64,000 nt of DNA from positions 146 to 64,145 of the forward strand of contig JABHMJ010000022.1 in NCBI GenBank assembly GCA_018693795.1, in the 5' to 3' direction. The stretch comes from Candidatus Woesearchaeota archaeon. Its GTDB lineage: Archaea; Nanobdellota; Nanobdellia; SCGC-AAA011-G17; PNOQ01. Shown here piece after piece: positions 4,931 to 64,000 of the stretch. Under the pieces are notes generated by a model that saw nothing but the letters and a program-made list of their open reading frames with translations, searched no databases and was not told the origin of the DNA. The position numbers and the translations under genes were made by a program. How positions within the stretch are numbered: position 1 is the first letter of the stretch; each line of letters opens with the position of its first letter.

Positions 4931-5227
4931 TTATCCGAAAAGAGCACCTAGGCCTGCTGCTGCTTGTCCGTCATCTTCTTTCTTTTCTTCTTTCTTTTCT
5001 TCAGCTTTTGGAGCTTCTTCAGTTGCTGTTGCAGCTGGTGCTGCACTAACTGTAGCGGCTTCTTTAATTGCTTGCTCGATATCTACTCCATCAAGTGCTG
5101 CAACTAATGCTTTGATTTTTGAATCGTCTGCTGTTGCTCCTGCAGCTGTTAAAACTTTTTTTAAGCTTTCTTCATTGATTTCATTACCAGATTTGTGAAT
5201 AAGTAATGCTGCATATATTAATTCCAT
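4931..5227 (-). CDS. rpl12: 50S ribosomal stalk protein L12 (P1)
   Basis: N-terminus [14 protein letters not shown], an Ala-rich hinge, and the canonical acidic tail ending GLGALFG. Confidence 0.9.
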
Positions 5228-5228
5228 T

Positions 5229-6323
5229 TTATCCTCCTATACTCTCCTGTTTTAATTGATCTAAAAGTTTCTCAGCTTCTTTTGCTGATTCTTCTGAGTA
5301 ACCACTTTGATCTACTTCTTCTGATTTTTGATCTTCTTTCGGAACTTCTTCAGTTTTTTCTTCAACTTTTGGTTCTTCTGTTGGAGTTTCTTCTGGTTTT
5401 TGTTCCTCGGTTTTTTCTTCAGCTTTATGTTCTTCTTTCGGAACTTCTTCAACTTTTGGTTCTTCGGCCTTTTCTTCGACTTTTGGTTCCTCAGTTTTAG
5501 GTTCTTCTGATTTTTCTTCAGCTTTAGGTTCTTCTTTTGGAGTTTCCTCTTCTGGAAGTTTTGATTCTATTGAAATTTTTTCTCTTTCAGCTTTTTGTAA
5601 CAATATTTCAACAGTTTCTTTTGTTGGATATGTTACGAAAACTGCAAGATTGAGTGCTTCAGAAGCTGCTGCTTTAATTCTGTTCAAGTATTCAGCTTCA
5701 TCAATAGATAATACATCACTATCAAAAATATCCCCATTTTGATAGATTGCGGCAATGTTTAATCCAATTTCCATTGGTTCTATGCCAAATTTAGCAAGCA
5801 TATCTGCTTGTTTTTGTGTTATTTCTTCTCCTTTTTTAACAATTGTCGATTCTTCTTTAATTATAACTTTTCCATCTTCAATTGAAGCTTTAATTCCTGC
5901 TGCACCCAATTCTCCAATAATTGGTCCTGGCGCAAAAGGGGTTGGGCCTTCAGGAACTTTCAAATCTTTTGGAGCTATTTGTCCAGGCTTAGCGGCAGTA
6001 GAAGATTTATTTTTATCTAACATTTTTGCTATTTTGAAAGCATCTTTATCTGTTAACAATATTGCAGGCATTGATTTTTCTAAATATTTTTCTAATTTTT
6101 CTATTCCTTTTTTAGATCCTTTTACATTTTCTATTGCTATTTTAATTAATGATTTTTTAGCAACTATTACGTTTAGATCTTTTCTTAGTTTGTGTTTTAT
6201 TTTTTGGAATTGAGCAGAAGGTAAATTTGTTAAGTCTATGATTCCTATAATTGATCCTGATTCAAGCTTTTTAGTTAATTCTACAACTGTTTGCTTTTTC
6301 TTATCAGAAACGTGGGCTTTCAT
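5229..6323 (-). CDS. rplP0: 50S ribosomal protein L10 (P0) with long repetitive E/P/K-rich C-terminal extension
   Basis: Conserved L10/P0 core ([22 protein letters not shown]...) followed by about 100 aa of EEPKxEEK repeats. Sits between L1 and L12. Confidence 0.9.
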
Positions 6324-8568: not shown

Positions 8569-9612
8569 TTAGAATTCAGTTAATTTCTTTGAATAATTTA
8601 CAATTGAAGATTTCCCAGGAACTTCAATAACGTCTAACATGTGATTTTTCTTTAATTCATCTATTTTTCTGTGGAATGTTCTATAAGAAAACTTATCTTC
8701 TAACATTGAATGTAATTCTTTTACAGTTTTTCCAGAATTTTGTTTTATTAAATCTAAAATTGTTTGTTCATCATCTCCGAAGTCTAGAGAATTTTTAATT
8801 TTGAAACTTTCCAATTTTGTTAATGCTTTGTGTGCGTGATCAATTAATATTTTTCTTGAAGCTCTTGCCTCTGCAGAATTTCCAGATTCACGAAGTAAAA
8901 ATAATCCAGAACGTATATCTCCCACTTGTATTGTTTTATTTATTACTGCTTGCATGGCATCTTGATCCCAAACATTTGGAACAAAAGCATATTTTACTCT
9001 TTCTTTCATAATTCCTGCAGTTTCTTCAGCATTGTATTCATTAAACTCTAAAAGTTCTGGCATCAATCTTGATTTTACTCTATCATCTAATTGGGTTAAC
9101 CATTCTTTATTATTTGCAATCAAGATTAATGATTTTTTTAGTAAATCTTCGCAGAATGAATATAGTATGTCTACTTCTCTTACTTTATCAATTTCATCTA
9201 AGAATAAAACTACTGTTCCTTTGTTTAATTCTTTTGCAGCTATGTCCATTAATTCATCTGTTCTTTTATTTTGGGTCCATTTGTATCCAATTTGATTACA
9301 AATTTCTAATAATATTTTATAGCTTGAATCTTTTTTCCAACAGTTTATGTATATTGCTTTGACATCTCCTGTTTTTTCTTCTAATTCTCTTTTTACAAAT
9401 AATGCAGCTAAAGTTTTTCCTATTCCCGGTGCACCTTGTATGAATAAATTTCTTCCAGTTTTATTTTGAAGTAATGGTGCAATACATTCTGCGATAAATT
9501 GTTGTTGATTTTCTCTGAACGGAATTTGTTTTGGAACGTAATCATAATCTAACGCAATTTCATCTAAGAATAAGCTTTCATTGTCGTGTAAAATATTATC
9601 GAATAAACCCAT
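8569..9612 (-). CDS. cdc6: ORC1-type DNA replication protein Cdc6/Orc1
   Basis: AAA+ Walker A (GAPGIGKT), Walker B (VLFLDEIDK), sensor motifs, and a C-terminal winged-helix. Confidence 0.9.
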   Translation of the reverse strand: MGLFDNILHDNESLFLDEIALDYDYVPKQIPFRENQQQFIAECIAPLLQNKTGRNLFIQGAPGIGKTLAALFVKRELEEKTGDVKAIYINCWKKDSSYKILLEICNQIGYKWTQNKRTDELMDIAAKELNKGTVVLFLDEIDKVREVDILYSFCEDLLKKSLILIANNKEWLTQLDDRVKSRLMPELLEFNEYNAEETAGIMKERVKYAFVPNVWDQDAMQAVINKTIQVGDIRSGLFLLRESGNSAEARASRKILIDHAHKALTKLESFKIKNSLDFGDDEQTILDLIKQNSGKTVKELHSMLEDKFSYRTFHRKIDELKKNHMLDVIEVPGKSSIVNYSKKLTEF

Positions 9613-9647: not shown

Positions 9648-10001
9648 CTAAAGTTCTTTAAGACCTTCATCTGCATTAGTTACGAATCTAAAGCCTACTC
9701 CAGACTTCATTAAGGCAGTGACTAAGGCCATATGTTCTTTTCCTGTGCCTGAAACGAAATTAACTGCAATTTCATCTTTTACTTTTTCTTTTATAATTCC
9801 AGTGATTTCATCTCTTAGTTCTTCCTCTGAAGCTGAAGAATTTACAACTATTAATTCAGTATTTTCTGCTGCTGTAAATTTTTCTTTTCCGAAATCATTT
9901 GTTAGTAAATAGATTTTATCCCAGCTTTCTGCGTTGATTAATCCAGTTACTTGTCCCCAAGTTCCTTTTCCTGTTGATAGGAATGCTATTAAATCTGTCA
10001 T
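9648..10001 (-). CDS. hypothetical protein, possibly nucleotide-binding alpha/beta fold
   Basis: 117 aa; 35 bp upstream of cdc6 on the same strand; the GTGK motif is glycine-rich-loop-like. Confidence 0.4.
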   Translation of the reverse strand: MTDLIAFLSTGKGTWGQVTGLINAESWDKIYLLTNDFGKEKFTAAENTELIVVNSSASEEELRDEITGIIKEKVKDEIAVNFVSGTGKEHMALVTALMKSGVGFRFVTNADEGLKEL

Positions 10002-53628: not shown

Positions 53629-54084
53629 TCAAAATCTGAAAGCCCCATTTGCTAATTCAGATTCACTTATTAAAATATGGTCTCCTTCAATTTTATTTTC
53701 TAAAAATGATGGCCAACATCCTCCTCCACGGTTTTCTGTACCAATAGAATCTATACTAAATACTCTTCCACAATTATTGCATACCATGTCTGTACCCTCT
53801 TGTCTATACCCCTTATATCCACCACAAACATCACAAGCATCGAAGGCCGATCTTATTTCCCCATTAGATCCTTTAACTAAAAAATATTTTACTTCTTTCC
53901 CATTTACATCAAATGAATAGTGTTTTGCAGTTTCTGAAATTTCAGAAATCGGTATTTTTATGAAAGCATCATTTGAAATTATATTTCCTGTTGGGTTTCC
54001 CTTTTGAGTAGGATTACTAGTAGTGCACCCACTCACCAAAATAATTGTTAATAAAATTATTCCATATATTATTTTATTGTTCAT
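53629..54084 (-). CDS. DUF2318-like Cys-rich lipoprotein (metal-binding, permease-associated)
   Basis: Start set at MNNK with lipobox VSGC. Contains FDACDVCGGY...CNNCG motifs. Confidence 0.5.
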   Translation of the reverse strand: MNNKIIYGIILLTIILVSGCTTSNPTQKGNPTGNIISNDAFIKIPISEISETAKHYSFDVNGKEVKYFLVKGSNGEIRSAFDACDVCGGYKGYRQEGTDMVCNNCGRVFSIDSIGTENRGGGCWPSFLENKIEGDHILISESELANGAFRF

Positions 54085-54085
54085 C

Positions 54086-55507
54086 TTATCCTCCACACCC
54101 GCATCCCCCGCCAGATGCCCCGCATGAGCCACCTTGAGGAACTTGAATATCATTTATTTTATTTGAATCTAAATTTGTTAAATCATCTACCACTACAAAA
54201 GTCCCTGGGATCATTCCCATCCAACAACTCCAAGAGATTACCCCCGTAGTCGTAGGCGTAAATTCTATTGTTTGTTCTCCAGGGGTTACTTTAAAATTTA
54301 AATTGTATTTTGGAACTTGGATTGCATTGTTACATCCATTTATTTCTTTTCCATCTATTATCCATTTTACTGGAATTCCTTTTTGTAAAACAAATTTATC
54401 TGGAGACCAACCATATCTATTCACTTCCATTCTAATCTCTTGATAATTCCCATTTAGGGTTGCTAATTCATTTGAAGGCAAATTTTCATAATTTGTTGAT
54501 TTTACTGTTGCGCCAACAATTAATGAATCATAGTCATACCCTGAACCCGTTAGAGATAGCCCCCGATTAATCATGACTATTCCAAGAATCATGACCACTA
54601 CTGCAGAGACTTTTAGGATTTTTTTTGTTGATGATGCACTAATTATCGATGTCATTATCCCAAAACCCAGTAAAACTGGTAGGGTTCCTAATCCAAATGC
54701 AGTCAAACTTAATGCTCCTTGCAACATACTTCCTGTGCCTGCCGCATAAATGTACATAGCTTGCAACGGACCGCATGCGATCATTAGACTATTCAATAAT
54801 CCAATTTTTAATGGACTTCTTGATTTTTGAGTTTCTTTCGAAGCAAATTTATTTAAGAAACTTGGAGATTTAATTCTTATTTTTCTTAACCAAGGAAATA
54901 TATTTAACATGTTCAATCCAAAAATTACTAGGAAAAGTCCTGCTAATATTGCAGCATATCCTCTTAAATTTGGGGTGAACGCAATAAACGATCCAAACAG
55001 TCCAAATATTCCCCCAATTATTGCATACCCTGTTGTTTTTCCTAAACCATATTCTAGGTGTGCACGAGTTTTCGATTTTGCTTTTGTAGCATAAGAGATT
55101 ACAAATCCCCCACACATGCCAATACAATGAAATCCAGTTAATAACCCAAGTACAAATAACAAAGCTAAAGAGGTTTCCTGAGATAAATCTGGGAAAAAAT
55201 CAAATCCCCCTGTATTTTCTAAAATTAGGTATGCACCAATCAATAAGAATGCTATTGATATTGCAATTGTAAGATATAACCTACTTTTTTTTGGTTTTAT
55301 TTCACTTGGAGAGTATCCAGATTCATCAATTATATTAAATATTTTTTCTTTAGATATTTTTTCTTCATCGAATCTAATGTTTAATTTACTTGACTCATAA
55401 TTTGCTTTTACTTCTTGAATCCCTTCTTTTTTTTCTAATGCTCTTTCTAATATTTTTTCACAGCTCCCGCAAGTCATCCCAGAAATATATATTATTTTTT
55501 CAGTCAT
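54086..55507 (-). CDS. fusion protein: N-terminal HMA domain, polytopic permease (DsbD_2/TauE-like, HCIGMCGG motif), C-terminal cupredoxin-like domain with Cys/Gly tail
   Basis: GMTCGSC HMA motif; about 8 TM helices; C-terminal beta-rich domain (TTGVISWSCWMGMIPG) ending SCGASGGGCGCGG. Confidence 0.6.
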   Translation of the reverse strand: MTEKIIYISGMTCGSCEKILERALEKKEGIQEVKANYESSKLNIRFDEEKISKEKIFNIIDESGYSPSEIKPKKSRLYLTIAISIAFLLIGAYLILENTGGFDFFPDLSQETSLALLFVLGLLTGFHCIGMCGGFVISYATKAKSKTRAHLEYGLGKTTGYAIIGGIFGLFGSFIAFTPNLRGYAAILAGLFLVIFGLNMLNIFPWLRKIRIKSPSFLNKFASKETQKSRSPLKIGLLNSLMIACGPLQAMYIYAAGTGSMLQGALSLTAFGLGTLPVLLGFGIMTSIISASSTKKILKVSAVVVMILGIVMINRGLSLTGSGYDYDSLIVGATVKSTNYENLPSNELATLNGNYQEIRMEVNRYGWSPDKFVLQKGIPVKWIIDGKEINGCNNAIQVPKYNLNFKVTPGEQTIEFTPTTTGVISWSCWMGMIPGTFVVVDDLTNLDSNKINDIQVPQGGSCGASGGGCGCGG

Positions 55508-60147: not shown

Positions 60148-60850
60148 ATTCTTTTGAAACAATCAATGTTTTTCCTAACCCAATTTTTAAATTACTTAAA
60201 TCTAAATTTCCTATTTTAATTCTAGTTAATTTATTTATTTCATAATCAATCTTTTCAAACATTAATCTTATTTCTCTTTTTTTACCTTCATCTAATACTA
60301 TTAAAATGCGCTTTGTATTACTTCCAATTTTCACTTCCAAAGGTTTTAACTGTTGGTTATTTATCTCGATCCCTTTTTCTAAAGTTGCTTTTGATTTATT
60401 ATCTAGTTCTTCTGTTAATTCTATTAAATATGTTTTTTTTACTTTAAATTTAGGATTTGCAACTTTGTGACTCAATTTTCCATCATTTGTGATTATAATC
60501 AACCCTTCTGTATTTTCATCCAATCTACCTATACAAAATAAAGTTGAATCTTCTTCTAGTAAAGAAAATAAGGTTTTTTTATTTAATTTAATATCTTCTC
60601 TTGTCAATCTCGAAGAAAGATATCCTTGTGGTTTATTTAATATTATATACTTATTTTTTCTTTCAGCAATTAATTTTTCGTTTTTATATTTCACATCATC
60701 TGAAAATTTTAGATGATAATCTGGCGTATGGATTGTTTTATTATTTACTGTAACTTCTCCATTTTTTAAAATTTCCAATATTTCTTGCTTATTATTGAAC
60801 TTTCCAGTCCGTATTAAATACTGGTGTAATCTTATTTGTCGTTTTGTCAT
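60116..60850 (-). CDS. RsuA/RluB-family pseudouridine synthase with N-terminal S4 domain (bacterial-type)
   Basis: S4 domain; catalytic GRLDENTEGLIIITNDG (conserved Asp); QGYLSS motif. Confidence 0.85.
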   Translation of the reverse strand: MTKRQIRLHQYLIRTGKFNNKQEILEILKNGEVTVNNKTIHTPDYHLKFSDDVKYKNEKLIAERKNKYIILNKPQGYLSSRLTREDIKLNKKTLFSLLEEDSTLFCIGRLDENTEGLIIITNDGKLSHKVANPKFKVKKTYLIELTEELDNKSKATLEKGIEINNQQLKPLEVKIGSNTKRILIVLDEGKKREIRLMFEKIDYEINKLTRIKIGNLDLSNLKIGLGKTLIVSKEFILENLGLSE

Positions 60851-60904
60851 GGTATTTAGGTAAATGCTTAATTTTATAAATAGATTGTTTTCTCAAAGAG
60901 TTAT

Positions 60905-60979
60905 GCTCTTGTAGTGTAGTCCGGTCCAGCATTTCGGCCTCTCGCGCCGAAGACCCGGGTTCAAATCCCGGCGGGAGCA
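60905..60979 (+). tRNA. tRNA-Glu (anticodon CUC)
   Basis: Acceptor GCTCTTG/CGGGAGC (two G-U pairs), anticodon stem TCGGC/GCCGA with loop CTCTCGC, T-arm CCGGG-TTCAAAT-CCCGG. Confidence 0.75.
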
Positions 60980-61051
60980 TACGAACTTTATGTTCGAGTA
61001 ATTAGCTAAGGTAAGGTAAGGGAAAATAAAAGATTAAGGAGAACTTACCAA

Positions 61052-62215
61052 ATGAAAAAAAATAAGATAGATGTGCATTATAGCACAAAATCATTAGCTA
61101 CTGCATTAAAAAAATTAAAAGAAGACTTAACAGAAGACAACTATAAACAGATAAATAATTTCTTAACAGATTTAGATATTGGATTAACGGGTACTAAGCG
61201 ACCAAATGAGAGAACACAGTTAAAAATAATGTTTCGGCTGAAAACTTGCGCCTTATACTTCGATAAGAAGAACATAAGGATAGATAAGATAGATTTAGCC
61301 AATATGAAGCGGTTTATTTCTGACCTACAAAATGATGTAATCCAAAAACAAAGACCTAATAGCTCAAATTTGAACTATTCTGACAATACAAAGAGCGGTA
61401 TTAAGAAAGAACTCCGTCGATATCTCAAATATCGGATGGGCGAAACTGCAAAATGGAAAAAACTCACTGCGTGGTTTGATACTACGACAGACGAGCAAGA
61501 GATAATCTACATAAAGAGAGACGAAGTCAAAAGATTACTATTGAACACTGGGACATTTATGAATAAAACCATTATCCAAGTTTTGTATGATAGCGGAATG
61601 AGGGCGGAGGCATTTTTGAACTTATTCCCGTCGGATATTTCACAAGATGAGGAAACCGGTCTCTTCGTGATTGATGTTCGCCCGGAAACTACAAAAACAA
61701 AGAAGGGAAGGAAAATATTTCTGTATATGGCAGAGACCACAGAGATACTTGGAGAATATCTAAGGGGCATTAAGGACAAAGACCAAAACTCTCAGCTATT
61801 CCCCCTAACCTATGACGGACTAAGATTGATGATAAGTCGTCTAACAAAAAAGACGTTAGGTAAATCTTACACCCCTCACAGCTTCCGACGAGGTTCCGCT
61901 AGCTTTTACGCTTCAAGTCTAAACCATTATCAATTATGTCAAAGATTTTCTTGGTCAGCTTCAAGCGATATCCCAAATAAATATGTAGACTTGAGTTGTG
62001 TTAACCAAAAAAAGATAGCCAAGAAGATAACACTTGACCAAGTCGGAGAGTTCAAAGAAAGAATGAACAAATTAGAAAGTGAAAATAATCTTATGAAAGA
62101 AAACCAAAAACAATTTGAGTTAAAGACCGCGGAACTGTTATCTAAGATTATGGGGCAGATACAACAATCGGAACAAGAACCAGTTTTAGAAATCGTAGAG
62201 CAATATCGCTCTTAA
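61052..62215 (+). CDS. int: tyrosine recombinase/integrase (phage integrase family)
   Basis: Catalytic R (SGMRAEA), HxxR (HSFRRGSAS) and C-terminal Y (IPNKYVD) motifs in canonical order. Confidence 0.85.
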   Translation: MKKNKIDVHYSTKSLATALKKLKEDLTEDNYKQINNFLTDLDIGLTGTKRPNERTQLKIMFRLKTCALYFDKKNIRIDKIDLANMKRFISDLQNDVIQKQRPNSSNLNYSDNTKSGIKKELRRYLKYRMGETAKWKKLTAWFDTTTDEQEIIYIKRDEVKRLLLNTGTFMNKTIIQVLYDSGMRAEAFLNLFPSDISQDEETGLFVIDVRPETTKTKKGRKIFLYMAETTEILGEYLRGIKDKDQNSQLFPLTYDGLRLMISRLTKKTLGKSYTPHSFRRGSASFYASSLNHYQLCQRFSWSASSDIPNKYVDLSCVNQKKIAKKITLDQVGEFKERMNKLESENNLMKENQKQFELKTAELLSKIMGQIQQSEQEPVLEIVEQYRS

Positions 62216-62427
62216 TTTTTCTTTCTTTTTCTTGTCGTTAGATTTACAAAAAGCGACAAGAATTAACCCTTTTTTCCGTCGCTGTTACAAGCAAATAAAA
62301 AATAAAACAAAGGTTTAAATAAGTTAAACAATTCTTATTCTCTAGAACTTTTTTTTTGGTTCTAAAATGTATGGAGTAACGATTTCTCGTTTCTCCTTGA
62401 ATGGAATAGAAATTCAAGGAGGACAAA

Positions 62428-62655
62428 ATGAATAACACAATAAAACAAAAAACTGATACGAACATTACATCTATAAAATTTTCAACAGAAAATGATAAAC
62501 TATTTTTTCAGTTTTTAAAACAATATGGAGAGAAAGAAGGGCTTGGTCTTAGTACATTTATACGACGGCATTTGATTACTTCATTGGATATTGAATTTAG
62601 GTCTTGGAAAAAAAGACAAATAGATGAGGCAAGCAAAAATGGCGACGAGAACTAA
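62428..62655 (+). CDS. putative ribbon-helix-helix DNA-binding protein
   Basis: N-terminal beta strand (ITSIKFST) followed by helices (GLSTFIRRHL). Confidence 0.35.
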   Translation: MNNTIKQKTDTNITSIKFSTENDKLFFQFLKQYGEKEGLGLSTFIRRHLITSLDIEFRSWKKRQIDEASKNGDEN

Positions 62656-62821
62656 AGGAGTTTTTTGTTATTTGACGCCGAAGGAGAAAGAATTCCTTAA
62701 AACGGCTGCTTCGAAGGCCGGGCTAAGTCAAAGCGATTATCTGCGCTATAAAATTTTCAAACAAAATAGGATTTCATCAAAACTAGATAAAATTCTAAAG
62801 ATTTGTGAGGGCTTCGAATGA
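62624..62821 (+). CDS. putative ribbon-helix-helix (CopG-like) protein
   Basis: GVFCYLTPKEKEFLKTAASKAGLSQSDYLRYKI, a typical RHH pattern. Confidence 0.45.
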   Translation: MRQAKMATRTKGVFCYLTPKEKEFLKTAASKAGLSQSDYLRYKIFKQNRISSKLDKILKICEGFE

Positions 62822-63087
62822 CTTCTAGGAACAATTATTGCACTTACTGTGGTAGTAAATTGATATTTGACAATTGTGAGAAGTGCAGTAATAAGATTTG
62901 GGATTTGCCTTCTGATGATGAAATTGATAGGAAGATAAAATCTAAGTGGGGAATTTCTAGAATTTATAGATGGATTTCAAAACGTTGTCCATGCTATAGA
63001 ACAGATTTAATTCTAAATAGAATATTGAATAGGCCTAATGAGTTTAGTTCTCACTCTGTTTATCGGGCGAGAAGGAGCTTAAAATGA
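62818..63087 (+). CDS. zinc-ribbon protein
   Basis: CTYCGSKLIFDNCEKCSNK (C4). Confidence 0.4.
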   Translation: MTSRNNYCTYCGSKLIFDNCEKCSNKIWDLPSDDEIDRKIKSKWGISRIYRWISKRCPCYRTDLILNRILNRPNEFSSHSVYRARRSLK

Positions 63088-63204
63088 GTTTAATGATGTT
63101 TACCCTAACCGAACTATCTTTTAATGATTTTAAAGCCGAGAAAGACGTTTTTGATAGGAAAAGTTGCGCTATAGGTATGTTCATTTTGGGGGTGTGGTTG
63201 TAAA

Positions 63205-63459
63205 ATGAATGAGAAGAAAAAATACGTCAGAAACGAACTGGCGAAACGCCTAAGAACCAGCCGACACGAAATTCTTGAAATTCAAAAAGAAATTCATTGT
63301 GAGCTTGAAAGTTTGAAAAAGTTTGGAAATACAACAGAAGACACCGATGATTTTGAAGAGTGGACTTTAGCCTATAAGGAATTTAAAGGTTATTTTTTAA
63401 CTATTGATAAAATATTTTCTGAGCTTAGCGGACGTTTGGAGGGTTTGCAAAATGAATAA
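63205..63459 (+). CDS. hypothetical protein (84 aa) of integrated element
   Basis: ORF only. Confidence 0.3.
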   Translation: MNEKKKYVRNELAKRLRTSRHEILEIQKEIHCELESLKKFGNTTEDTDDFEEWTLAYKEFKGYFLTIDKIFSELSGRLEGLQNE

Positions 63460-63664
63460 GGATTTTTTAGAAAATCTAATTGGAAAAAGAGTTTTTATGA
63501 TTTTGAAGAGCAATCACAAATATTCTGGGCTTGTTCAACAAATTGAAGGGAAGCATATTCAGTTCAAAGATAAATTCAATGAATTTGTGATTATTTCTAT
63601 TGATGAAATCAAAGTATTGAAGGAAGTTAGAGATGATGAGGAGAGAAAAAATGGTGGTTGTTAG
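63404..63664 (+). CDS. hypothetical protein (86 aa) of integrated element
   Basis: ORF only. Confidence 0.3.
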   Translation: MIKYFLSLADVWRVCKMNKDFLENLIGKRVFMILKSNHKYSGLVQQIEGKHIQFKDKFNEFVIISIDEIKVLKEVRDDEERKNGGC

Positions 63665-64000
63665 GTCAAAAGAAGGTGATATAGCTGATGTTTTTGATAA
63701 AGCATCTGCGAAAAAAGAAAGAAGAAAACCTGGAGGGAATATTCCAACTAAACCAAAAAAAGTTATTGGGGTTTTCAATGAAACAGATATCAAATCCTTT
63801 TATAAAATATTAAACAATAAAGAAGTAGAGATAAGAGCTTTCAATGAAACTTCAAAGAAACAGTTTTTTGTAAACTCCGAAGACGAAGCAATTAAGATAT
63901 GCAAAGAACTTGATAAAACTCATAATATTTATTTTGGAGTTAATGAAAGAACTCCTAACGGTTCTACAAATAAAGATGTTATTGCAGTAACAACAATTCC
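63651..64000 (+). CDS. partial CDS (N-terminal 116 aa), possible replication/primase-polymerase-like protein of element
   Basis: Manual translation MVVVRSKEGDIADVFDKASAKKERRKPGG...HNIYFGVNERTPNGSTNKDVIAVTTI; open to the window end and not in the ORF track. Confidence 0.3.
   Translation, partial: MVVVRSKEGDIADVFDKASAKKERRKPGGNIPTKPKKVIGVFNETDIKSFYKILNNKEVEIRAFNETSKKQFFVNSEDEAIKICKELDKTHNIYFGVNERTPNGSTNKDVIAVTTI

What the first reader, a model, noticed from the sequence alone, without database searches (positions are those of the whole stretch)
60905..64000. Integrated genetic element at tRNA-Glu: tyrosine integrase, two RHH proteins, a zinc ribbon and a possible replication gene, with elevated GC
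A full-length tyrosine recombinase with R, HxxR and Y motifs starts 73 bp after the 3' end of tRNA-Glu(CUC). Downstream ORFs are small DNA-binding types typical of archaeal proviruses and integrative plasmids. The base composition is visibly GC-richer than the surrounding host genes. The element runs off the window, so attR is not visible. Mobile elements of DPANN archaea are very poorly described.
Basis: partly seen in the sequence, partly recalled or inferred. Interest (0 to 1): 0.7.

Follow-up and report, generated by a model that had tools for sequence, protein, structure and literature searches.

The report
Integrative plasmid-like element in Woesearchaeota tRNA-Glu
The end of the window is the left third of a real mobile element of about 9.4-9.9 kb that has inserted into the 3' end of a tRNA-Glu gene of a marine Woesearchaeota (DPANN) archaeon; it is a well-defined new example of a known kind of archaeal integrative plasmid, not a new kind of system.

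Summary
tRNA-Glu(CUC) lies at 60905-60979. An intact 387-aa tyrosine integrase starts 73 nt later, followed by two ribbon-helix-helix proteins, a zinc ribbon and the N-terminus of a primase. Sibling contigs with about 100% identity give the whole element. A 13-bp direct repeat, CGGCGGGAGCATA, marks attL (window 60969-60981) and attR 9,906 bp downstream (9,420 bp in a shorter variant). Ordinary host genes follow attR.

One 82.8-kb contig has the two host flanks exactly 175 bp apart, which is the size predicted for an empty site. The same sample also holds the occupied allele.

The rest of the element encodes an AEP primase fused to a P-loop ATPase, a third RHH protein, a small serine recombinase and a secreted Cys-rich metzincin-like cargo protein. 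No capsid, packaging, membrane or conjugation genes were found. GC, GC3 and tetranucleotide composition are atypical for the host.

A sister element sits at tRNA-Gly in the same genome, and a more distant integrase sits next to tRNA-Trp.

Best reading: a self-replicating, integrase-mobilised "cryptic integrated element" or integrative plasmid. It is a new member of a known kind, of moderate interest.

The parts
60905..60979 (+). tRNA-Glu(CUC), the integration target. It is intact after integration.
   Evidence: ARAGORN; Rfam RF00005, 59.7 bits.
60969..60981 (.). attL core CGGCGGGAGCATA: the last 11 nt of the tRNA plus 2 nt. The second copy (attR) lies 9,906 bp downstream in L005 (9950-9962).
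   Evidence: One match in the window against 0.00 expected. Two copies in L005. The same attR junction is seen in L012, L014, L016, L017, L041-L043, L045 and L047.
60982..60996 (+). Hairpin cgaac-tttat-gttcg directly after the core. Equivalent hairpins follow the core in related elements and in the host attB flank. Candidate core-type integrase site or tRNA 3' terminator (inferred).
   Evidence: Sequence and folds. attL/attR similarity extends to 22 of 26 nt (D13).
61005..61022 (+). TAAGG x3 direct repeats (GGTAAGGTAAGG) upstream of an A-rich box and the int ribosome-binding site. The same motif lies upstream of the serine recombinase gene and of related integrases. Candidate shared regulatory or arm-type site (inferred).
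   Evidence: D12; 0.07 expected.
61052..62215 (+). Tyrosine integrase, 387 aa, with a C-terminal coiled-coil extension.
   Evidence: Pfam PF00589, 1.2e-8; phrog_1; invariant R-K-H-R-W-Y; 231 cluster representatives at E<1e-10.
62231..62260 (.). Palindrome CTTGTCG-N16-CGACAAG just after the int stop codon. It recurs three times in the sister element. Candidate operator or terminator (inferred).
   Evidence: 0.00 expected by chance.
62428..62655 (+). 75-aa RHH-like protein.
   Evidence: Weak Pfam DUF6290. Homologues in E-Gly and L018. hhalign to the NikA-like profile: 86.5%, E 4.6e-6.
62639..62821 (+). 60-aa NikA-like RHH protein (the ORF is open from 62624).
   Evidence: Pfam PF21983, 2.2e-9. 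41% identical homologue in E-Gly.
62818..63087 (+). 89-aa zinc-ribbon protein (CxxC...CxxC).
   Evidence: Pfam DZR, 3e-4, below the cut-off. The cysteine motif is read directly from the sequence.
63205..63459 (+). 84-aa conserved protein of unknown function.
   Evidence: 36% identical homologue at the same position in E-Gly; phrog_37580, 7e-4.
63452..63664 (+). 70-aa protein, possibly Sm-like.
   Evidence: Sub-threshold DUF6897 and LSM matches. Homologue in L018.
63633..64000 (+). N-terminus of the replication protein (904-910 aa in L004/L005): an AEP primase-polymerase domain plus a P-loop ATPase. Truncated by the window end.
   Evidence: phrog_2478, 3.3e-12. Invariant DxD, SGxG, D and R motifs. 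AF2 N-terminal domain with pLDDT >90. Foldseek top PDB hits are all AEP prim-pols. Weak AAA match and Walker A GPAGSGKT.

Best explanation
The window ends inside a 9.4-9.9 kb integrative, plasmid-like mobile element ('E-Glu'). It belongs to the class called cryptic integrated elements in archaea. The host is a marine Candidatus Woesearchaeota archaeon.

Mechanism:
- The element's tyrosine integrase recombined an attP site, lying just upstream of its own gene, with the 3' end of the chromosomal tRNA-Glu(CUC) gene. The exchange took place within a 13-bp identity segment, CGGCGGGAGCATA.
- Because the element carries the same 11 terminal tRNA nucleotides, the tRNA stays intact.
- The integrase gene stays whole and faces inward next to attL, which is the lambda / 'type II' archaeal topology.
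- The reverse reaction restores a clean attB. Both occupied and empty alleles coexist in one sample.
- Once excised, the circle would be replicated by its own AEP primase-polymerase/ATPase protein. Three RHH proteins would act as regulators, and the small serine recombinase would resolve multimers or rearrange the cargo region.
- The cargo is a secreted, lipobox-bearing, Cys-rich protein with a metzincin zinc-protease motif.
- The element has no recognisable virion or conjugation genes, so cell-to-cell transfer must rely on something else.

Shown here: the integrated state, both boundaries, the empty-site spacing, the domain identities, and the existence of a family of related elements at other tRNA genes.

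Inferred: the excised circular form, autonomous replication, the roles of the RHH proteins, the serine recombinase and the DNA motifs, and the transfer route.
For: Boundaries: the 13-bp core occurs once in the window (0.00 expected) and twice in L005, at 44-56 and 9950-9962. The attR junction is identical in nine further independent contigs.

Host flank: attR is followed by a 67-aa ORF, then LOG, G6PD, glutaredoxin and Lon_C genes. This flank has GC 0.283.

Empty site: an 82.8-kb contig from JGI sample 3300072015 has the pseudouridine synthase gene and the 67-aa gene 175 bp apart. That equals 54 + 77 + 44 bp, the spacing predicted for attB with one core. The same sample holds an occupied contig.

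Integrase: catalytic residues are intact and invariant.

Replication protein: PHROG match, motifs and AEP fold.

Serine recombinase: Pfam Resolvase, 1.8e-45.

No virus or conjugation hallmarks: none in Pfam, PHROGs or NCBIfam. No hydrophobic segments except the cargo signal peptide. Not found in IMG/VR.

Composition: atypical for the host.

Family:
- The sister element E-Gly lies at tRNA-Gly(TCC) in the same MAG. It has 8 syntenic homologous genes, its own 21/22-nt attR, and a different replication module and cargo.
- A 30% identical integrase lies 59 bp after tRNA-Trp.
- Closer relatives have a tRNA-3'-like core, a hairpin and GGTAAGG repeats upstream of int, with no tRNA present. This is the arrangement expected for attP.
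Against: - The DNA of the empty-site contig could not be read. attB rests on gene coordinates only.
- An exact-pattern scan of JGI metagenome contigs found attL twice and attR twice but neither attB nor attP. The excised circle has therefore not been seen.
- Contig L004 has a non-tRNA left junction that does not match the predicted attP. This is unexplained.
- Absence of capsid genes is a negative result from profile searches. Small archaeal viruses often have unrecognisable structural proteins.
- The C-terminal ATPase half of the replication protein is modelled at low confidence and has only sub-threshold AAA matches.
- The window's own genome is not assembled beyond about 64,471, so its right end is inferred from about 100% identical contigs from other samples.
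Confidence: 0.8

Rival explanations
1. It is a helper-dependent cargo shuttle, the archaeal analogue of the tycheposons or satellites of marine bacteria. On this reading the element integrates at tRNA genes, replicates briefly after excision, and spreads in vesicles or in the particles of a helper virus. Along the way it builds tRNA-linked islands of surface-protein genes. This refines the best explanation more than it contradicts it.
For: [quoted passage not shown]

The tRNA-Gly locus carries three copies of its core. In L025 it carries two full tRNA-Gly genes flanking Cys-rich lipoprotein genes.

The cargo is exchanged between E-Glu and E-Gly in contigs L014 and L004.

The host is a small-genome marine organism, and the element encodes no transfer machinery.
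Against: No vesicle-fraction or virus-fraction data were examined. The element is absent from IMG/VR. No terS, capsid or interference genes were found. Tycheposon hallmark gene profiles were not compared, and the integrase family is different. Each hybrid contig is a single observation.
Confidence: 0.25
2. It is a provirus of a small temperate archaeal virus, for example a pleomorphic or spindle-shaped one, whose structural proteins are too divergent to recognise.
For: The closest annotated integrases are those of archaeal pleomorphic viruses: Geoglobus acetivorans pleomorphic virus 1 and ThalV2, at 24-25% identity, E 2e-9 and 9e-7. Its size of about 10 kb and its primase-type replication protein fit small archaeal viruses. 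The large secreted protein could in principle be a spike.
Against: No capsid, packaging ATPase or membrane protein was found. No E-Glu protein other than the cargo signal peptide has a hydrophobic segment. The putative 'spike' lacks a C-terminal anchor. In the sister element it is replaced by an unrelated Rce1-like gene, so it behaves as swappable cargo rather than as a core virion gene. There are no IMG/VR relatives.
Confidence: 0.1
3. It is a fixed, no longer mobile genomic island, a decaying remnant that merely sits next to a tRNA.
For: Nearly all of the contigs that carry this locus and could be read are occupied. No attP junction was found.
Against: All genes are intact, and the integrase keeps every catalytic residue. 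Both att cores are perfect. An empty allele with the exact predicted spacing coexists with the occupied allele in one sample. Several assemblies break at the tRNA.
Confidence: 0.05

Closest known systems
Cryptic integrated elements (CIE) and integrative plasmids of archaea, as classified for Thaumarchaeota (Krupovic et al. 2019, PMC6563490)
   Same: Multigene integrated elements flanked by short direct repeats. The median att length in thaumarchaea is 17 bp; here it is 13 bp. They are mostly inserted in the 3' part of tRNA genes. They encode an integrase and often a replication protein, but no viral or conjugative hallmark genes.
   Different: The host is a DPANN archaeon (Woesearchaeota). The integrase family has no annotated relative above about 25% identity. 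The element carries a second, serine recombinase and a secreted metzincin-like cargo protein.
pNOB8-type / 'type II' archaeal integration (She et al.; review by Badel et al. 2021, PMC8371274)
   Same: It follows the lambda-like topology: att lies outside the integrase ORF, the gene stays intact after integration, and the target is a tRNA gene.
   Different: The review gives the pNOB8-type sequence signature as R...YxxR...Y. This integrase has R...HxxR...W...Y. pNOB8 is a large conjugative plasmid, whereas this element has no conjugation genes.
Tycheposons of Prochlorococcus and other marine bacteria (Hackl et al., bioRxiv 10.1101/2020.12.28.424599)
   Same: They are tRNA-targeting, with an inward-facing tyrosine recombinase at one end, a small primase/helicase module and variable cargo. 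Tandem elements are separated by partial tRNA copies. Rearrangements occur between related copies. The hosts are streamlined marine organisms.
   Different: They are bacterial and have their own hallmark gene set, which was not compared here. This element is archaeal, with an unrelated integrase family and an extra serine recombinase. There are no vesicle or virus-fraction data for it.
Primase-helicase replication proteins of small plasmids and phages: RSF1010 RepB', cyanophage S-2L PrimPol, CRISPR-associated Prim-Pol and P4/D5-like primase-helicases
   Same: The N-terminal domain has the AEP fold and the DxD / SGxG / D motifs. The best structural matches are 7p9j, 6zp9 and 3h25. In sequence relatives, the same N-terminal domain is fused to D5_N/DUF5906 SF3 helicases.
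   Different: No Pfam or NCBIfam model and no PDB sequence match covers it. Here the C-terminal half is a different, poorly modelled P-loop ATPase.

Membership tests
Tyrosine recombinase / phage integrase superfamily (PF00589) | Catalytic R...K...HxxR...[H/W]...Y residues in a C-terminal catalytic domain. | tested here: met
   Pfam 35.4 bits against a cut-off of 27.1. R184, K215, H276, R279, W301 and Y311 are invariant in 14 family members.
Type II (lambda/pNOB8-like) archaeal integration topology | The att site lies outside the integrase ORF, and the integrase gene stays intact in the integrated state. | tested here: met
   The full-length int ORF lies 73 nt from the tRNA. The core is at 60969-60981, outside the ORF.
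pNOB8-type integrase subfamily (by sequence) | Signature R...YxxR...Y, as stated in PMC8371274. | tested here: not met
   Box II reads H276-S-F-R279, not YxxR.
SSV-type (type I, 'suicidal') integrases | attP lies inside the integrase ORF, so the gene is split on integration. Signature R...KxxR...Y. | tested here: not met
   The gene is intact in all integrated copies. Box II is HxxR.
Archaeal XerA chromosome-dimer resolvase | Match to NCBIfam NF040815 at or above its cut-off. | tested here: not met
   55.3 bits against a cut-off of 220. The gene also lies within a mobile element that is absent from the empty allele.
Integrated mobile element with site-specific att sites | Direct repeats at both ends, one of them within the target gene, and an empty allele in which the flanks are adjacent. 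| tested here: met
   The 13-bp repeats lie 9,906 bp apart. The empty-site contig has the predicted 175-bp gap. Its DNA could not be read, so this rests on gene coordinates.
Archaeo-eukaryotic primase (AEP) superfamily | The AEP fold with motif I (DxD), motif II (sGxGxH-like) and motif III (D). | tested here: met
   Invariant D125xD127, S165-G166-x-G168 and D211. Model pLDDT is above 90 over residues 45-257. The 19 PDB matches with E <= 0.001 are all AEP enzymes, with TM up to 0.68.
Provirus (temperate archaeal virus) | A major capsid or other virion protein, or a genome-packaging gene. | tested here: not met
   No such match in Pfam, PHROGs or NCBIfam. No membrane-protein candidates. This is a negative result and therefore not conclusive.
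Integrative-conjugative element or conjugative plasmid | A VirB4/TraG-type transfer ATPase, a relaxase and a mating-pore module. | tested here: not met
   Only NikA-like RHH proteins were found. There is no relaxase or transfer ATPase.
Small serine recombinase (resolvase/invertase) | An N-terminal resolvase catalytic domain plus a C-terminal HTH, about 185-195 aa in total. | tested here: met
   PF00239, 1.8e-45, plus weak HTH matches. phrog_125 DNA invertase, 7e-52. This gene lies outside the window, at L005 6488-7045.
Tycheposons | The shared hallmark gene set of the lineage, together with tRNA-site specificity and a modular int/replication/cargo layout. | not tested
   The layout is similar, but hallmark profiles were not available to compare. 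Sequence membership is unlikely, given the different domain of life and the different integrase family.

The most novel reading that the evidence does not exclude
E-Glu and E-Gly may belong to an archaeal counterpart of tycheposons. On this reading they form a DPANN-specific family of tRNA-targeting elements with two recombinases.

The tyrosine integrase would choose the tRNA island. The small serine recombinase would act at the roughly 29-nt TTGTC...TAGTTTGTTAKACA sites that flank the cargo, swapping or inverting cassettes that encode Cys-rich surface lipoproteins and proteases. Exchange would occur between elements and between tRNA loci, diversifying the cell surface of an episymbiotic archaeon.

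The evidence does not exclude this:
- The cargo gene is bracketed by these repeats.
- The two hybrid contigs cross over exactly at them.
- A third contig has an inverted copy.
- The tRNA-Gly locus carries extra att copies around further Cys-rich lipoprotein genes.
Probability: 0.2. Interest if true: 0.65.

Novelty: new member of a known kind. Interest (0 to 1): 0.4.

Why it matters
Integrated elements of DPANN archaea with both ends, an empty site and a sister element defined are still few. A 2026 survey reports only 30 proviruses in 7,316 Nanobdellota and Thermoplasmatota genomes combined.

This locus offers a clean, testable system:
- a 13-bp att core;
- an integrase family with 231 cluster representatives at E<1e-10 in an exhaustive search, none of the ten looked up carrying an organism name;
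- a divergent AEP primase domain not covered by Pfam or NCBIfam;
- a mobile gene for a secreted metzincin-like protein that may bear on how these episymbionts interact with their hosts.

It does not change how archaeal integration is understood.

Tried and rejected
Searches that led nowhere:
- The genome-contig scan with the neighbouring pseudouridine synthase returned only two distant bacterial genes.
- The word-indexed homologue search with the integrase found only itself and two XerD-like proteins. The exhaustive search was needed to reveal the family.
- IMG/VR scans with the integrase and the primase found nothing.
- PDB sequence searches with the integrase and the primase found nothing.
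- Pfam and NCBIfam do not cover the primase N-terminal domain.
- A degenerate pattern designed to catch attL, attR, attB and attP in JGI contigs returned only attL twice and attR twice.
- The look-up of the cargo protein did not return the L004 contig.
- Cluster look-ups of ten integrase relatives gave no organism names.

Ideas rejected:
- That the 381-aa gene downstream of the tRNA-Gly fragment is another integrase. It is a Cys-rich lipoprotein-like protein with no recombinase similarity.
- That L004 is simply the excised circle. Its right part is the right end of E-Gly, including attR(Gly).


Full report
**What is in the window**

ARAGORN and Rfam place tRNA-Glu(CUC) at 60905-60979. A 387-aa ORF at 61052-62215 starts 73 nt after the last tRNA base. 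It matches Pfam Phage_integrase above the cut-off and PHROG integrase families. In an alignment with 13 relatives, R184, K215, H276, R279, W301 and Y311 are invariant, so the active site is complete.

Downstream, all on the + strand, lie:
- a 75-aa protein that is RHH-like by profile-profile comparison (86.5%, E 4.6e-6);
- a NikA-like RHH protein, 2.2e-9;
- an 89-aa CxxC...CxxC zinc-ribbon protein, which is sub-threshold in Pfam;
- three small ORFs;
- the first 116-122 codons of a large ORF that runs off the window.

Composition is modestly but clearly atypical:
- GC is 0.331 for the window part and 0.324 for the whole element, against 0.299 for the host. The window part is in the top 1.7% of 3-kb host windows, and no 9.9-kb host window reaches the whole-element value.
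- Integrase GC3 is 0.369, against 0.163 +/- 0.044 for 49 host ORFs.
- The tetranucleotide distance to the host is 0.190, against 0.102 +/- 0.019 for host windows, with a maximum of 0.152.

**Getting the rest of the element**

The exact integrase protein is carried by 16 public contigs. NCBI names the organism Candidatus Woesearchaeota archaeon. The longest such contig is 64,471 bp, so the source assembly itself stops inside the element.

Contig L005 (10,039 bp) starts inside the tRNA and is 99.97% identical to the window over its first 3,075 bases. It contains the tRNA 3' end twice, as a 13-bp exact direct repeat, CGGCGGGAGCATA, at 44-56 and 9950-9962. In the window this sequence occurs once, at 60969-60981, with 0.00 matches expected by chance.

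The repeat consists of the last 11 nt of the tRNA plus 2 nt. Similarity continues to 22 of 26 nt on its right side. The element is therefore 9,906 bp long. It is 9,420 bp in copies that lack an exact 486-bp tandem duplication in the cargo gene.

The same attR junction is seen in nine further independent contigs: L012, L014, L016, L017, L041-L043, L045 and L047. It is followed by ordinary host genes: a 67-aa ORF, then LOG, glucose-6-phosphate dehydrogenase, glutaredoxin and Lon_C. That flank has GC 0.283.

**Empty site**

I looked up the host genes on either side of the element. One 82.8-kb contig (JGI sample 3300072015) has the pseudouridine synthase gene and the 67-aa gene separated by exactly 175 bp. 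The predicted attB spacing is:
- 54 bp from the synthase start to the tRNA;
- 77 bp for the tRNA plus the 2 extra core bases;
- 44 bp from the core to the 67-aa ATG.

These sum to 175 bp.

The DNA of that contig was not available, so this is coordinate-level evidence. The same sample also has an occupied contig that begins just upstream of the tRNA. Several assemblies break within the tRNA. This points to presence/absence polymorphism within one population. An exact-pattern scan of JGI contigs found no attB or attP junction, so the excised circle has not been observed.

**Gene content**

After the window, the element encodes the following.
- **Replication protein, 904-910 aa.** Its N-terminal domain matches phrog_2478, DNA polymerase/primase (3.3e-12). 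It keeps invariant DxD, SGxG and D motifs and is modelled at pLDDT above 90. Its structural matches are AEP primase-polymerases: CAPP 7p9j, S-2L PrimPol 6zp9 (TM 0.68), RepB' 3h25 (TM 0.66) and LigD. In relatives the same domain is fused to D5-like SF3 helicases. Here it is fused to a P-loop ATPase with only weak AAA matches.
- **A third NikA-like RHH protein, and two small conserved ORFs**.
- **A 185-192 aa serine recombinase**, Pfam Resolvase 1.8e-45.
- **A 711- or 873-aa cargo protein.** It has a lipoprotein-type signal peptide, the metzincin motif HELGHTFGLGH and Cys-rich repeats.

No capsid, packaging, membrane or conjugation genes were found. IMG/VR holds no relative.

**A family of elements**

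An exhaustive search finds 909 integrase cluster representatives at E<1e-3 and 231 at E<1e-10. The best is 46% identical, and most matches are full-length at about 360-430 aa. The nearest annotated proteins are integrases of archaeal pleomorphic viruses and haloarchaeal plasmids, at 23-26% identity.

The same MAG carries a sister element, E-Gly, at tRNA-Gly(TCC).
- Its integrase is 42% identical to that of E-Glu.
- Eight genes are homologous and in the same order.
- It has its own 21/22-nt attR.
- Its replication module is different (PrimPol 261 aa plus a 495-aa ATPase), and so is its cargo.

A 30% identical integrase sits 59 bp after tRNA-Trp in another archaeal context.

Upstream of the closer relatives' integrases the same anatomy recurs:
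- a tRNA-3'-like core, present with or without a full tRNA;
- a short hairpin;
- GGTAAGG-type repeats;
- an A-rich box and a ribosome-binding site.

In E-Glu the GGTAAGGTAAGG motif also precedes the serine recombinase gene. A palindrome, CTTGTCG-N16-CGACAAG, follows int and recurs in E-Gly. The functions of these motifs are inferred, not tested.

**Interpretation**

The data fit a lambda-like ('type II') site-specific integration into the tRNA 3' end by a self-replicating, plasmid-like element. This is the class called cryptic integrated elements in Thaumarchaeota, where att sites are similarly short.

By sequence it is not a pNOB8-type, SSV-type or XerA recombinase. The layout and ecology resemble bacterial tycheposons, but membership was not tested.

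The provirus reading is weak. The only large secreted protein behaves as swappable cargo.

**Unresolved**

- Contig L004 is E-Glu up to about position 9230 and then E-Gly's right end, including attR(Gly). Its first 23 nt are neither tRNA nor the predicted attP.
- Contig L014 is the converse hybrid. It crosses over in a 21-bp sequence shared by both elements, just after the serine recombinase gene.
- The cargo gene is flanked by 29-nt direct repeats at precisely these crossover points. L042 has an inverted copy of the right-hand repeat region.
- These could be real recombinants, arising by homologous or serine-recombinase-mediated exchange. They could also be assembly artefacts. Each is a single contig.

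**Verdict**

It is a new, well-delimited member of a known kind of archaeal mobile element, of moderate interest.

Noticed in passing
L023 9843-~19700 (GCA_018670755.1 JABHIZ010000019.1); also L024-L027: A sister element, 'E-Gly', lies in the same MAG. Its layout is: tRNA-Gly(TCC), a 385-aa integrase (42% identical), small ORFs, PrimPol (261 aa) plus a 495-aa ATPase, NikA-like RHH, a serine recombinase, an Rce1-like membrane protease on the opposite strand, a 128-aa ORF, a 66-aa ORF, an HNH endonuclease, then a 21/22-nt repeat of the tRNA-Gly 3' end.
   Followed up: partly
L027 10117-11413; L025 4919-6298: The tRNA-Gly locus carries extra att copies. A third copy of the core CCCGGCCAGCGCA lies after a 381-aa gene in L027. 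In L025, two complete tRNA-Gly genes flank a 384-aa gene. Both proteins are Cys-rich with lipoprotein-type signal peptides, so the locus looks like an att-bounded island of surface-protein cassettes.
   Followed up: partly
L004 1-23 and 9230-11270; L014 7673-7693: Two hybrid contigs were found. L004 combines the E-Glu left part and cargo with the E-Gly right end and attR(Gly). L014 combines the E-Gly left part with the E-Glu cargo and attR(Glu). The first 23 nt of L004 (aatgctggtttttgtccgaagaa) are unexplained. They contain the reverse complement of tRNA bases 'ccagcatt' and the forward 'ccgaaga'.
   Followed up: partly
L005 7028-7056 and 9748-9776; L042 12-168: The cargo gene is bracketed by 29-nt direct repeats (TTGTCTgtagtagctTAGTTTGTTAGACA and TTGTCAatcttacacTAGTTTGTTATACA) next to the serine recombinase gene. 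The left one has TTGTCT/AGACAA inverted ends. Contig L042 has an inverted copy of the right-hand region upstream of a 128-aa ORF and the recombinase gene. These may be serine-recombinase sites.
   Followed up: partly
L005 8645-9430: An exact 486-bp tandem duplication inside the cargo gene makes an 873-aa protein instead of the 711-aa protein seen in most other contigs.
   Followed up: yes
window ~64357-64576 (ends of L001, L002, L006) and L005 ~4535 (left end of the L041 contig): Many independent assemblies break inside the primase/ATPase gene. Only four contigs span it. The cause was not examined; strain variation or a repeat shared with another element are possibilities.
   Followed up: no
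window 60792-60980 (-): A 62-aa ORF antisense to the tRNA-Glu gene is called as a gene in some public assemblies (L008, L009, L032, L034). It is almost certainly a gene-calling artefact.
   Followed up: no
window 5001-6000 and 54001-55000: Two other 1-kb bins have GC as high as the integrase region (0.358 and 0.349). They were not examined.
   Followed up: no
L020 1690-1785 and L021: A 42% identical integrase (P0011) is preceded by the same tRNA-Glu-type core (CGGCGGGAGCA) with no tRNA present. The two contigs differ only in the 3 nt just before the core. This may be an attP or a tandem junction of a second tRNA-Glu-specific element.
   Followed up: no
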